30,528 nucleotides of DNA from Candidatus Obscuribacterales bacterium (lineage in GTDB: Bacteria; Cyanobacteriota; Vampirovibrionia; Obscuribacterales; Obscuribacteraceae), in contig JAKFVJ010000361.1 of NCBI GenBank assembly GCA_021732245.1, forward strand, positions 1 through 30,528, in the 5' to 3' direction. The translations under genes and the position numbers were made by a program. The notes under the pieces are model-generated. The model saw only the letters and a list, made by a program, of their open reading frames with translations, searched no databases and was not told the DNA's origin. This document shows positions 4,754 through 12,983 of the stretch, one piece after another. Numbering within the stretch: the stretch's first letter is position 1; each line of letters starts with the position of its first letter.

Positions 4754-5692
4754 ATGTCGCATCCTACAGATGAACTCGATCACAAATACGCAAATCCCCT
4801 TGGATTTTGCGCCTCCGCCATTTATGAAACTATGGACTTTTGTGTGCAGTCGGCAATGCACCCGGACAAACGCATAAGGCAAGCCGATGTTCTGACTCAT
4901 GGTCTTATCGTCGGTGGCATTAAGGAAATACCGAACCAAATCCTAAATCACGCTGGGGAAACTGCAACTAAGATGGGTGTTGCTGGAGCCATTGGCGCTG
5001 CCTTCAGTTTACTTATTGATTCGAAGACTAAATTTCTCTCTACAGGTGCCAAATGGCTTGGCTTAGGCATGGGTGTAGGTGCCATTGCGGCCACAGCCGT
5101 CGATCTTCATTCTAAGCCCAAACTTAAATCGGCTCTGGAAGCTGCTTGGAACAAGCCTGAAGCCGTTGCCGCCGGCAAACAGATTGCTGAAGCCGAGTGC
5201 GGACCAGACGGCTTCAATTGGGGGTTGTCCGTACCAGCAACTATCGTCGGCGGTATTGGTGCAAAAGGCGCGATGAAATATTGGTCCTACCGGCAAGCCT
5301 TGTCCAATGGCGCCGAAACGCTCTTAAAACCTGACATCGTAGACGGTCCTACACCCGGACTGGATGAGGCTGGCAGACTTCTTCTGGAGCCCACTGCTCA
5401 CGAATTCTCGATGCTACAGACATTTATTCTCCATGCTCAAGAACTTGTCCCGGGTGTAAAAGTTGACCGGGCGATCTCAATACCTGAGGAGGCATTTGGA
5501 CAACCTGCGGTAATGGCAAAGATTAGGCTTCCTGCCGGCACTACTAGACCGTTCGAGGACGCTTACAAATTGAAACGCTTGGCTGCCCACCTTGCAATAG
5601 ATAACGATTGGCTGTTTGACTGCACGATTGATGGTGAAGAACTTATAGACATGAATGGCACCGCCATACTACTTCACGGATTGAAATACTAA
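4754..5692 (+). CDS. Hypothetical protein: hydrophobic N-terminal module (family A) plus unknown ~120 aa C-terminal domain
   Basis: Start reassigned to ATG 4754 (AGGAATGAG upstream) within ORF 4664..5692. N-terminus aligns with 11667..12983 (RQ...GLI.GGI..I...ETA.K.G...L..AL.A...KQI...G..GFN.GL). Confidence 0.75.
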   Translation: MSHPTDELDHKYANPLGFCASAIYETMDFCVQSAMHPDKRIRQADVLTHGLIVGGIKEIPNQILNHAGETATKMGVAGAIGAAFSLLIDSKTKFLSTGAKWLGLGMGVGAIAATAVDLHSKPKLKSALEAAWNKPEAVAAGKQIAEAECGPDGFNWGLSVPATIVGGIGAKGAMKYWSYRQALSNGAETLLKPDIVDGPTPGLDEAGRLLLEPTAHEFSMLQTFILHAQELVPGVKVDRAISIPEEAFGQPAVMAKIRLPAGTTRPFEDAYKLKRLAAHLAIDNDWLFDCTIDGEELIDMNGTAILLHGLKY

Positions 5693-5819
5693 TACGAAAC
5701 GGCATTGTGCACATAGAGAAAACCCGGTGACGACTCCGCTTGCCGTGGAATTAATTTTCTGTCTACCCTCTGAATGTACAATTTAAGTACTGAATTTCGT
5801 AGGTTACAGCGGAGGAATA

Positions 5820-6272
5820 ATGTTCAGAAATATTCAATTAGTATTGCCGAGCGCTATCTTGGCAGTTTTTGTCCTTTTACCTGAAGCGCTGGCAGAAGAT
5901 GGAACCATGCCGCTTGCAAGAACCAATCATTTGAAGATAGTAAGTCTGCCAAAAGAAGTAAATGCAGGTGAAGACATTATCTTGGAAGCTATTACCAATG
6001 CGAATGCAAAGTGCATTATCACTGTCGCCAGCGGAGATCAGGAACTTATTGGAACTGATCTTGTGCCGAAATTGGCTGACAGTGCCGGTAACGTCAAGTG
6101 GCAATTTAAAGCGACTGACAAAGCAGGCAAATTGGACGTATACGTCCATTCTGTGTCCGGTATAGCTGATGTAGGTGCATCGACTAGTATCAATGTACAG
6201 CCAGCAACGGACGCTGCTGCTGGCAAAGCAGGAAAGTTAATGCTGACGAAGGCGAGATCACGGCAACACTAA
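5820..6272 (+). CDS. Secreted hypothetical protein, probable Ig-like beta domain
   Basis: GGAGGA RBS and signal peptide ending ALA. Beta-rich pattern with LVPKLADSAGNVKWQF. Confidence 0.7.
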   Translation: MFRNIQLVLPSAILAVFVLLPEALAEDGTMPLARTNHLKIVSLPKEVNAGEDIILEAITNANAKCIITVASGDQELIGTDLVPKLADSAGNVKWQFKATDKAGKLDVYVHSVSGIADVGASTSINVQPATDAAAGKAGKLMLTKARSRQH

Positions 6273-6348
6273 AAATCGCAGTTGTCATATATTTGCCCAT
6301 GACTGGATTCATTTGACTGGTTCCTGATACTCGATGTAATGTCAGGTA

Positions 6349-11434: not shown

Positions 11435-11557
11435 TCACCTATTCATATATGTCCGTTTATGTCCGCTCTTCATCTCCTCGTGCGAATGACTTTGCACATA
11501 CCCTCTCTGCCCTAAGAATGTCTGAAGTCTCTAAATCTTTAAGTCGTATTTGCCGAT

Positions 11558-11597
11558 GGGGGAAATATACGCAGACGTGGGAATTTCCCCAATTACA
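11558..11597. promoter_or_regulatory. Inverted pair of motifs (GGGGGAAATATACG...TTTCCCCAATTACA)
   Basis: Plus-strand TTTCCCCAATTACA (11584-11597) is identical to the site upstream of 1619, and its TTTCCCCA core ends 75 nt upstream of ATG 11667. Confidence 0.5.
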
Positions 11598-11666
11598 TGA
11601 CTAGCAAGCAGCTATAGGATGCTTACAGAAAGCAGTAGCTATGAAATTTTAGTGGGGTGACGACTA

Positions 11667-12983
11667 ATGGCAGATGGTGGTTCTAAGGGCGATATTGGGC
11701 GCCATCAGGAACAAGTAGATAATTCGCGTGAAAGAATGGTTGAGAACTGGCAGAATGATTTCAACGAATTTATTGTTGGCACTATTAACAATCCCATGGG
11801 TCGATTGAGGCAGACAGCACTTGTAGGCGAAGGACTTATTTTTGGTGGAATTACCGACATAGCCAAAGAGTGGAAAGTCGAAACGGCTGAAAAGGCCGGC
11901 GCGTCGCTATTGGTGGGCAGCGTGATTGGCACTATTTTAACCAGCAGAAATTCGAGTCTGAAAACAGCGGTGCAGCTTCTGGGCTCAATTGGTGCTTTAG
12001 CGTACGGTGTTGATGCGTGGAAAAAGTATAGTAAAGATCAAGAATTATCCACAGCACTTGATGCTGTTTATAAAAATAGCGACTTGAATACATTTAGCAA
12101 GCAAATACATACGGCGAATAAGCAGTTAGGAGAAGAAGGTTTCAACCTTGGTCTTGTCGGGCTTACTGGTGGCTTAGGAATGGCCGTAGGACGTGAATAT
12201 GGTTATACAGTGACATCGAAAATTACTCCTGGTTTCACAAAGCGAATATTTGAAAACGTCTTTATGCCGTCTCCTAAGACTTCAGCTAAGTCTGTTGACA
12301 TGGACTTTTATGCCAAGCATAAAGAGTTTCAAGTGCTAAGACACAACAAAAATGCCGATAGGTTCGCAACGCATTGTGAAGAGACATCTGCAGCTGTAAA
12401 CCATGAGCCTTCATGGCAGAAAGCAATTTCTGAAGAGGAATGCGAATTGTTCAATGCATCTCAGATGCGACGATCATTTGAACATGCTCGTGATACCTTC
12501 CTAGACGAATGTGTGAATGGTGAAATATCAGTGATCCGCTCAAGTAAAGGTCCGGCTGGGTATACTTTTGATAAAAGTAATCGTATTGTTGGAATTACCG
12601 TTCCAGAAGGGGCTACTCCGGCTGAAGTTGGTAGGCAACTTCTGGTAGGTTGCAGTTCCGATACGCTTGGTAAGCCGGGTGATGTGTTAATGTACACTGC
12701 TCTAAAAGGCTCTAAGAAATTTGGTTATGATGGTGCTCAACCGGGTGATTTAGCTGTTGCTGCCAAAGAGGGTAAACCTTTTTCGGAATCCAAGATTGGT
12801 GAATTGAGGCGCACCCAGGGGGCGCAACGGTATGTTGTTGAGGGCAGTGAGGCATACTATCGCGGAGAAAACGGCAACGATTATACTGATTGGATGAGAG
12901 GAATACACGGTATCTGGACTTCAGAAAGGCAAGCGGAGGCTGACTGGTTGCTATCCAAGATTGTTCGTGCCCAAAAATGGTAG
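11667..12983 (+). CDS. Hypothetical protein: family-A hydrophobic N-terminal module plus unknown C-terminal domain
   Basis: 438 aa ORF with GGGG RBS-like element and MADG start. N-terminus homologous to 4754..5692. Confidence 0.8.
   Translation: MADGGSKGDIGRHQEQVDNSRERMVENWQNDFNEFIVGTINNPMGRLRQTALVGEGLIFGGITDIAKEWKVETAEKAGASLLVGSVIGTILTSRNSSLKTAVQLLGSIGALAYGVDAWKKYSKDQELSTALDAVYKNSDLNTFSKQIHTANKQLGEEGFNLGLVGLTGGLGMAVGREYGYTVTSKITPGFTKRIFENVFMPSPKTSAKSVDMDFYAKHKEFQVLRHNKNADRFATHCEETSAAVNHEPSWQKAISEEECELFNASQMRRSFEHARDTFLDECVNGEISVIRSSKGPAGYTFDKSNRIVGITVPEGATPAEVGRQLLVGCSSDTLGKPGDVLMYTALKGSKKFGYDGAQPGDLAVAAKEGKPFSESKIGELRRTQGAQRYVVEGSEAYYRGENGNDYTDWMRGIHGIWTSERQAEADWLLSKIVRAQKW

What the first reader, a model, noticed from the sequence alone, without database searches (positions are those of the whole stretch)
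4754..12983. Polymorphic protein family A: shared hydrophobic N-terminal module with interchangeable C-terminal cargo
Seen: 4754..5692 and 11667..12983 share ~150 aa that align by eye (F.V....P..R.RQ...GLI.GGI..I...ETA.K.G...G...S...L.T...LG...L..AL.A...KQI...G..GFN.GL). 8979..10679 has a more distant version (IASAAIGAGLA...ANKKLLGYNLGSMAIDYPLTGLAG). After a linker the three C-termini are unrelated: two unknown domains and a TPR-ending region. None has a Sec signal peptide. Established: constant N-terminal delivery domain plus variable C-terminus is the architecture of polymorphic toxins/effectors, and Gly/Ala-rich hydrophobic hairpins occur in translocator and pore-forming domains. Inference: this is an uncharacterised effector or membrane-inserting family. 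No small immunity-like ORFs follow these genes, which would fit a non-self (e.g. eukaryotic) target or a non-toxin role.
Basis: partly seen in the sequence, partly recalled or inferred. Interest (0 to 1): 0.78.

Follow-up and report, generated by a model that had tools for sequence, protein, structure and literature searches.

The report
Lineage-specific N-terminal module, swappable C-termini
Three genes in this window start with the same undescribed, helical, membrane-like domain of about 180 residues; this domain heads hundreds of otherwise unrelated proteins in one uncultured order of non-photosynthetic cyanobacteria (Obscuribacterales), and it most likely anchors or addresses them to a membrane, though neither its destination nor any export route is known.

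Summary
P0001 (4754-5692) and P0002 (11667-12983) share an N-terminal module (BLASTP E 9e-12). The third gene (8979-10679, minus strand) is a true distant member: invisible to BLAST, but profile-profile probability is 96.8%, E 3e-10. The three C-termini are unrelated.

The module matches no Pfam, NCBIfam, PADLOC, PHROG or PDB family. AlphaFold models it confidently (pLDDT 88) as an all-helical bundle with no convincing structural match. Its core is two uncharged Gly/Ala-rich helices of 17 and 19 residues joined by a tight turn.

A broad profile finds it in 96 of 107 genomes of the order, up to 19 copies each, and only four marginal hits in about 294 other genomes of the class. It is almost always N-terminal. 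Ninety-nine representatives carry 49 classes of C-terminus (trypsin-like protease, HD, LysM, LRR, methyltransferase, TPR; most unknown).

The toxin or effector reading is only partly supported. I found no conserved immunity or partner gene, and no T3SS, T4SS, T6SS, T7SS or contractile-sheath marker in four genomes.

My best reading is a membrane-inserting anchor or address module. An earlier scan note (e1-3515817) describes a similar Obscuribacterales module in another genome; I could not verify that it is the same one.

The parts
4754..5692 (+). Gene 1 (P0001, 312 aa from ATG 4754; the ORF opens at ATG 4664, but homologues and the NCBI call start at 4754). N-terminal module plus an unannotated C-terminal domain of about 118 aa.
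4754..5308 (+). N-terminal module of gene 1, as matched by the 98-sequence profile (E 3.8e-51).
   Evidence: AlphaFold model of residues 31-235 of P0001, pLDDT 87.9
4973..5089 (+). Core helical hairpin of gene 1: two uncharged Gly/Ala-rich helices (model positions 74-90 and 94-112) joined by a short turn (family consensus Glu-x-Pro).
11667..12983 (+). Gene 2 (P0002, 438 aa). N-terminal module plus a C-terminal domain shared with four other representatives (P0004, P0006, P0013, P0018). No Pfam or PDB match.
11715..12275 (+). N-terminal module of gene 2 (profile E 1.1e-48).
8979..10679 (-). Gene 3 (566 aa from ATG 10679; the ORF opens at GTG 10727). A divergent member with a long unannotated middle part and a TPR-like end.
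10158..10616 (-). Divergent N-terminal module of gene 3 (residues about 22-174 of the 566-aa product), aligned to the core family by hhalign.
9180..9356 (-). TPR_12 match in the C-terminal region of gene 3. This region also resembles the C-terminus of the module-bearing protein P0036 (E 6e-6).
4686..4698 (+). Exact copy of the 13-mer CGTATTTTCCCCA, 56 nt upstream of the start of gene 1. A candidate shared promoter or regulatory element.
11422..11434 (+). One-mismatch copy of the same 13-mer, 233 nt upstream of gene 2.

Best explanation
The shared N-terminus is a self-contained, order-specific protein domain of about 170-190 residues, undescribed in the libraries searched. I read it as a membrane-insertion or membrane-address module.

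Shown: it folds (by prediction) into a bundle of long helices. Its core is a hairpin of two uncharged, Gly/Ala-rich, small-xxx-small helices of 17 and 19 residues joined by a Glu-x-Pro turn. The hairpin is preceded by a conserved basic motif (R-x-R-Q-A...G...GG-K) and followed by a conserved L-G-x-E-x-F-D...G..G helix and a proline-containing linker. It sits at the very N-terminus of about 95% of carriers, without a Sec or Tat signal. It is fused to dozens of unrelated C-terminal domains.

Inferred: the hairpin inserts into a membrane after or during translation, with the acidic turn outside and the basic flanks inside. The variable C-terminal enzyme or binding domains would then be held at that membrane, or handed to an unidentified export route. 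Gene duplication and C-terminal swapping have expanded the set to as many as 19 or more per genome. Which membrane is involved (the cell's own or a target's), and on which side the C-terminus ends up, is not resolved.
For: Family reality and restriction:
- 114 cluster representatives among 1.84 billion proteins.
- 96 of 107 genomes of the order at E<=1e-4, up to 19 copies each.
- Only four marginal hits (E 4e-4 to 9e-4) in about 294 other genomes of the class, and none in 400 other genomes of the phylum with the narrower profile.

Position and shape:
- N-terminal position: median envelope start is residue 9; only 6 of 120 start after residue 60.
- Fold: AlphaFold with 98 homologues gives pLDDT 87.9 and pTM 0.73, all helical.
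- Hairpin: columns 74-90 and 94-112 are almost free of charged residues across 98 sequences (at most 4% in any column except two; K/R reach 20% at 96 and 15% at 109). K73 lies before the hairpin; D113, R120 and K122 lie after it; the turn is acidic.
- The median best 19-residue Kyte-Doolittle window is 1.66, and 57% of 111 modules reach the classical 1.6 threshold.

Cargo diversity:
- 49 BLAST clusters among 99 C-termini.
- Pfam finds Tcp10_C, HD_5, Trypsin_2, LysM, LRR and methyltransferase domains. The top AlphaFold DB match is the N-terminus of a peptidase S53 protein.
- The C-terminal domain of one paralogue also occurs in a separate nearby protein that lacks the module.
Against: - No experiment or topology predictor was available. 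The hydrophobic helices are only moderately hydrophobic (the three window genes score 1.2-1.95), and AlphaFold packs them inside a compact bundle, so a soluble Ala/Gly-packed bundle is not excluded.
- The mix of typically extracytoplasmic cargo (LysM, trypsin-like, S53) with typically cytoplasmic cargo (HD-GYP-like, methyltransferase) does not sit well with one fixed topology. It fits exported effectors better.
- The third hydrophobic segment has basic residues on its C-terminal side, so the positive-inside rule gives no clean topology.
- A homodimer prediction gave no answer.
Confidence: 0.5

Rival explanations
1. The module is an export or translocation domain. The proteins would be secreted effectors or polymorphic-toxin-like proteins delivered to other cells (bacterial or eukaryotic) by a route not yet recognised in this order. 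The hairpin would serve in recognition by, or passage through, that route, or in insertion into the target membrane.
For: - Constant N-terminus with very variable C-termini and strong copy-number variation between genomes.
- Cargo types that mix extracytoplasmic and cytoplasmic enzymes, as effector sets do.
- No signal peptide.
- Neighbourhoods in other assemblies are rich in eukaryote-like genes such as SET, Ser/Thr kinase, LRR and NACHT.
- Some members share an upstream 13-mer with other large modular proteins of the genome, which suggests a regulon.
Against: - No TssC, VirB4, FlhA/SctV, contractile sheath or WXG100 in four genomes, three of them 91-97% complete.
- No conserved immunity, chaperone or partner gene beside the paralogues.
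- Most C-termini have no toxin-like annotation.
- No evidence of secretion.
Confidence: 0.27
2. The module is itself a pore-forming or membrane-perturbing domain, of the colicin, Bcl-2 or diphtheria T-domain type: a hydrophobic hairpin shielded by amphipathic helices that switches from soluble to inserted. The C-termini would modulate or target it.
For: Predicted bundle with a central uncharged hairpin and flanking amphipathic helices. Glycine-zipper-like small-xxx-small spacing.
Against: No structural match: best Z is 5.9 and Bak scores Z 4.5, both below the noise level the tool states for helical proteins, and Foldseek E-values are all above 0.7. If the constant part were the active agent, the great diversity of enzyme-like C-termini would be hard to explain. 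No immunity genes were found.
Confidence: 0.08
3. The module is a soluble helical adaptor, comparable in role to the PE/PPE or LXG N-terminal domains. Tight Ala/Gly helix packing would mediate pairing with a partner or docking to a scaffold or compartment, not membrane insertion.
For: Ala (14.2%) and Gly (10.9%) enrichment against 9.3% and 7.1% in the proteome. A compact, confident helical bundle. A lineage-specific, multi-copy, N-terminal position with variable C-termini.
Against: Two uncharged helices of 17 and 19 residues conserved across the family are unusual for a soluble domain. No conserved partner gene. No Pfam PE, PPE or LXG match. WXG100 absent.
Confidence: 0.15

Closest known systems
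Polymorphic toxin systems (N-terminal trafficking domain, variable C-terminal toxin, adjacent immunity gene; Zhang, Aravind and co-workers 2012, cited from my own knowledge)
   Same: A conserved N-terminal module with many unrelated, swappable C-terminal domains; multiple paralogues per genome; some protease and HD-type C-termini.
   Different: No conserved downstream immunity gene, no recognisable secretion apparatus among the markers tested, and most C-termini are not recognisable toxins. The constant part is a hydrophobic helical bundle unrelated to the known trafficking domains (LXG, PAAR, RHS, MafN, haemagglutinin repeats).
Chlamydial inclusion-membrane (Inc) proteins
   Same: No signal peptide; a bilobed hydrophobic hairpin near the N-terminus; variable C-terminal domains; a large lineage-specific repertoire.
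   Different: Inc proteins depend on a type III system, and no FlhA/SctV homologue over the Pfam cut-off was found here. Inc proteins share little sequence beyond the hydrophobic lobes, whereas this is a conserved domain of about 180 residues with invariant glycines and flanking motifs. The organisms have genomes of about 2.3-9.6 Mb, and nothing is known that makes them obligate intracellular.
Mycobacterial PE/PPE families
   Same: A lineage-restricted, greatly expanded, Ala/Gly-rich helical N-terminal domain of 110-180 residues fused to diverse C-termini, without a classical signal peptide.
   Different: No sequence match to the PE or PPE Pfam models, no WXG100/ESX marker, no paired PE-PPE gene arrangement, and a transmembrane-like uncharged hairpin that PE/PPE domains lack.
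Earlier scan note e1-3515817 ('Shared N-terminal module of Obscuribacterales proteins', another genome)
   Same: The same order; a Gly/Ala-rich hydrophobic helical N-terminal module of about 200 residues that heads hundreds of unrelated proteins; read as an address tag.
   Different: I could not obtain its sequences. The alpha-amylases of the order that I inspected carry ordinary signal peptides and not this module, so whether the two modules are the same is untested. This genome also holds at least one other, unrelated hydrophobic N-terminal module (family B).

Membership tests
Polymorphic toxin systems | Conserved N-terminal domain joined to many alternative C-terminal domains | tested here: met
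   49 C-terminal clusters among 99 representatives; the module is N-terminal in about 95%.
Polymorphic toxin systems | C-terminal domains are toxins (nucleases, deaminases, peptidases, pore formers) | tested here: inconclusive
   Trypsin_2 x3, HD_5 x3, LysM x2, LRR x1 and methyltransferase x1 of 98. The rest, including two of the three window genes, have no annotation.
Polymorphic toxin systems | Cognate immunity gene immediately downstream | tested here: not met
   No recurrent neighbour among 13 own-genome paralogues or three foreign loci. The 150-aa ORF after gene 1 is not conserved next to that gene's closest paralogue.
Polymorphic toxin systems | Link to a dedicated secretion system | tested here: not met
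   PF05943 (TssC), PF03135 (VirB4), PF00771 (FlhA/SctV; one sub-threshold hit), PF04984 (sheath) and PF06013 (WXG100) were not found in G000, G106, G059 and G046. Other routes were not tested.
Chlamydial Inc proteins | Bilobed hydrophobic domain (two transmembrane helices, short loop) near the N-terminus | tested here: met
   Uncharged columns 74-90 and 94-112 with a turn of 3-4 residues; median best KD window 1.66.
Chlamydial Inc proteins | Type III secretion system in the genome | tested here: not met
   No FHIPEP match over the cut-off in four genomes.
PE/PPE (Pfam PF00934/PF00823) | Sequence match to the PE or PPE domain models | tested here: not met
   A Pfam scan of the three window proteins and 98 family members gave no hit on the N-terminal module.
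PE/PPE (Pfam PF00934/PF00823) | ESX (type VII) system and WXG100 partners | tested here: not met
   WXG100 was not found in four genomes. EccC-type ATPases were not tested.
Colicin / Bcl-2 / diphtheria T-domain type pore formers | Structural similarity of the helical bundle with a buried hydrophobic hairpin | tested here: inconclusive
   Foldseek against PDB: best E 0.78. VIA-align: best Z 5.9, Bak Z 4.5, below the noise the tool states for helical models. Model coordinates could not be inspected for burial.
Sec or Tat signal peptides | N-terminal basic n-region and hydrophobic h-region within the first 30-40 residues; consecutive twin arginines for Tat | tested here: not met
   The first 40-70 residues are polar or acidic. 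The conserved motif is R-x-R-Q-A and not R-R, and it is followed by a conserved domain of about 130 residues.

The most novel reading that the evidence does not exclude
The module is the recognition or translocation domain of a protein-export or membrane-targeting route that has not been described and is confined to Obscuribacterales. These genomes show none of the T3SS, T4SS, T6SS, T7SS or contractile-sheath markers tested. Its clients would be co-regulated, through the CGTAnTTTCCCCA upstream element, with other modular families (family B and others) as one effector arsenal.
Probability: 0.2. Interest if true: 0.85.

Novelty: new variant of a known kind. Interest (0 to 1): 0.55.

Why it matters
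Obscuribacterales are widespread, uncultured, non-photosynthetic relatives of cyanobacteria whose ecology is poorly understood. About 630 matches to this one undescribed domain were found across 96 of 107 of their genomes, on dozens of different enzyme and binding domains. That makes it a major organising principle of their proteomes.

Learning where the module sends its cargo (own membrane, cell surface or another cell) would show whether these bacteria carry a large membrane-tethered enzyme set or an effector arsenal with an unknown delivery route. It would also give a handle on annotating hundreds of 'hypothetical' proteins. The module is also a candidate new Pfam-type family with a confident predicted fold and no structural relative.

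Tried and rejected
- AlphaFold on P0002 alone, without an alignment, gave an unusable model (pLDDT 35).
- Fold searches of the good module model against PDB (Foldseek and VIA-align wide), AlphaFold DB clusters and the ESM Atlas gave no convincing match.
- ESM Atlas feature searches gave nothing usable.
- PDB sequence profile searches of the module and of the P0002-type C-terminus returned only chance-level hits.
- NCBIfam, PADLOC and PHROGs gave nothing for the three genes.
- The word-indexed protein search found only one or two close relatives per query and was of little use.
- Homodimer prediction of the module returned 'no answer' and counts neither for nor against.
- A search for a conserved neighbour, immunity or chaperone gene found none. 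Several neighbours of about 289 aa turned out to be unrelated to each other.
- I first read contig C120's 362-aa ORF as a cargo domain that occurs without the module. I retract that: the ORF runs off the contig end, so it is probably another truncated member.
- The family B N-termini (93-1619, 13205-16480) are not related to this module by hhalign (probability under 1%).
Those inspected have Sec signal peptides and no module.
- Two literature searches found no description of this family.
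Full report
**Where the window lies.** The window is contig C1 of a 3.77-Mb, 519-contig, 78%-complete MAG. The only named relatives of its proteins are NCBI 'Candidatus Obscuribacterales bacterium' MAG proteins. The same locus lies on contig JAIETZ010000001.1 of assembly GCA_019744775.1. 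Base composition is even (GC 0.42-0.50 in 1-kb windows), and the window holds no tRNA.

**The observation.** The ORFs are 4664-5692 (+), 11667-12983 (+) and 8979-10727 (-).
- The closest own-genome paralogue of the first gene begins at the position that corresponds to ATG 4754, and NCBI calls a 312-aa product. NCBI also calls the third gene as 566 aa from 10679.
- P0001 and P0002 align over 131 residues at 31% identity, E 9e-12.
- The third protein is not significant by BLASTP or with a 7-sequence HMM (E 0.19). It reaches E 4.5e-5 with a 111-sequence HMM, as two colinear segments.
- Its N-terminal 215 residues find relatives in 49 of 107 genomes of the order, many at the same loci that the core profile hits.
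- An alignment of 15 such N-termini (A4) matches the 7-sequence core alignment (A1) by hhalign at 96.8% probability, E 3.1e-10, over 138 colinear columns.
- Its C-terminus clusters with P0036, P0075, P0077 and P0105, which carry a clear module (P0003 against P0036, E 6e-6).

The third gene is therefore a true divergent member. The three C-termini fall in separate clusters, and only the third has a Pfam match (TPR_12). No protein has a signal-peptide-like N-terminus.

**Size and range of the family.**
- Own genome: seven strong paralogues (C1 twice, C6, C73, C135, C325 and a contig-end fragment on C343). Six weaker ones appear with the broad profile (C253, C3, C147, C43, the third window gene and C69). 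A contig-truncated ORF on C120 is a probable further member.
- All proteins: a profile search of 1.84 billion representatives found only 114 at E<=1e-3.
- The order: the narrow profile hits 61 of 107 genomes. The broad 98-sequence profile hits 96 of 107 at E<=1e-4 (35 of 39 high-quality genomes), with up to 19 matches per genome and about 630 in all. These are lower bounds, because at most 30 candidates per genome were scored.
- Outside the order: only four marginal hits (E 4e-4 to 9e-4) in about 294 genomes of the same class, and none in 400 other genomes of the phylum with the narrow profile.

**Architecture.**
- The module starts at a median envelope position of residue 9. Only 6 of 120 sequences carry it after residue 60.
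- Carrier proteins range from about 200 to about 1,090 residues.
- The C-termini of 99 representatives form 49 BLAST clusters.
- Pfam finds Tcp10_C (7), HD_5/HD (3), Trypsin_2 (3), LysM (2), LRR (1) and methyltransferase (1) among 98. The rest have nothing, and five members of 881-1,088 residues also had no hit.
- The best AlphaFold DB cluster match is the N-terminus of a 775-residue peptidase S53 protein, probably another member.
- The C-terminal domain of the C6 paralogue recurs in a separate 298-aa protein two genes away.

**The module itself.**
- No Pfam, NCBIfam, PADLOC or PHROG model matches it, and neither does any PDB sequence.
- With 98 homologues, AlphaFold gives pLDDT 87.9 and pTM 0.73, with helices at 15-35, 37-65, 67-88, 93-119, 122-133 and 135-189.
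- No structural search gave a convincing match: Foldseek against PDB, best E 0.78; VIA-align, best Z 5.9, below the tool's stated noise for helical models; Atlas, TM at most 0.36.
- Column statistics over 98 sequences show, in order:
  - a conserved R-x-R-Q-A...G-[LV]-V-x-G-G-I-K helix;
  - H-P-x-E-T followed by K;
  - an almost uncharged run of 17 residues (74-90);
  - an acidic Glu-x-Pro turn;
  - a second almost uncharged run of 19 residues (94-112) that ends in a conserved Asp, then basic residues;
  - an amphipathic L..AL...W helix;
  - a conserved L-G-x-E-x-F-D motif leading into a third Gly-rich uncharged stretch (156-170);
  - a linker with a proline conserved in 98% of sequences.
- The median best 19-residue Kyte-Doolittle window across 111 modules is 1.66, and 57% reach 1.6. 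Ala and Gly are enriched (14.2% and 10.9%, against 9.3% and 7.1% in the proteome).

**Context.**
- No gene recurs next to the own-genome paralogues or next to members in three other assemblies.
- The 150-aa ORF after gene 1 has a signal peptide but no counterpart beside the C6 paralogue.
- The marker families for T6SS (TssC), T4SS (VirB4), T3SS/flagella (FlhA/SctV), contractile sheaths and WXG100 were not found in G000, G106 (97% complete), G059 or G046.
- A 13-mer noted by the first-stage reader (e1-5332250) has 15 genomic matches at one mismatch or fewer. Most lie 65-83 nt upstream of a sizeable ORF on the same strand, including gene 1 (exact match, 56 nt upstream of ATG 4754), the family B genes and several unannotated proteins of 1,100-1,350 aa. 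This suggests co-regulation of part of the family with other modular proteins. Most family-A paralogues lack the motif.

**Interpretation.**
- Shown: a real, order-restricted, greatly expanded N-terminal domain family with a transmembrane-like helical hairpin and interchangeable C-termini.
- Inferred: the hairpin inserts into a membrane. By the positive-inside rule the acidic turn would be outside and the flanks inside, so the module would anchor or address the C-terminal domains.
- Against a single fixed topology: the cargo mixes typically extracytoplasmic domains (LysM, trypsin-like, S53) with typically cytoplasmic ones (HD, methyltransferase). That keeps the export or effector reading alive at roughly one in four.
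- Against the classical polymorphic-toxin reading: there are no immunity genes and none of the secretion markers tested.
- Pore formation and a soluble adaptor role (PE/PPE-like) remain minor rivals.

**Novelty.** The architecture is of a known kind: a constant N-terminus with variable C-termini, as in polymorphic toxins, Inc proteins and PE/PPE. The domain itself is undescribed in the libraries searched and fails the defining features of each of those families. An earlier scan note on another Obscuribacterales genome (e1-3515817) describes what may be the same module, and I could not verify that.

Noticed in passing
window 1696-1708 (-), 4686-4698 (+), 11422-11434 (+), 13131-13143 (+); genome contigs C7, C40, C89, C99, C217, C236, C329, C401, C428: The 13-mer CGTATTTTCCCCA (one mismatch or fewer) occurs 15 times in the genome. 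In most cases it lies 65-83 nt upstream of a sizeable ORF on the same strand, often followed about 30 nt later by a TAAT-like element. The downstream genes are mostly large unannotated proteins without signal peptides, which suggests a promoter or activator site for a regulon.
   Followed up: partly
window 93-1619 (-) and 13205-16480 (+): A second kind of Gly-rich hydrophobic N-terminus ('family B'). It is not related to the module studied here by hhalign (probability under 1%). The 13205-type has six members in this genome, and the two B subtypes are only weakly related to each other (68%). The 1091-aa protein also carries an HExxH motif (HELEH).
   Followed up: partly
window 2556-3005 (-) and 4153-4521 (-): Two small ORFs that flank the ChaN/Tiki-like gene (3014-4156) share 81% identity over 80 residues. 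This is a local duplication of unknown meaning.
   Followed up: no
window 5820-6272 (+): A 150-aa protein with a clear Sec signal peptide lies directly downstream of gene 1. It has no family match and is not conserved beside the paralogue of gene 1.
   Followed up: partly
window 7668-8885 (+): A 405-aa protein that combines an HTH_37 (XRE-like) match at residues 172-223 with C-terminal TPR repeats. It lies between the family genes.
   Followed up: no
genome contigs C135 (6705-8961) and C73 (2615-4861); L009 (G059:C207): Two paralogues of the family are 81% identical. Each is followed, convergently, by a protein of about 290 aa (76% identical between the two copies). That protein also lies beside the orthologue in another genus (29% identity) and looks Abi-like by eye. 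This is a duplicated, conserved gene pair.
   Followed up: partly
L092, L093, L094 (other Obscuribacterales assemblies): The neighbourhoods of family members hold many eukaryote-like or signalling genes (SET domain, Ser/Thr kinases with LRR, NACHT, SACS-like, TPR) and many unannotated ORFs.
   Followed up: no
genome contig C120 8436-9524 (-): An ORF homologous to the C-terminal two-thirds of long P0002-type proteins runs off the contig end. It is probably a further family member cut by the assembly.
   Followed up: yes
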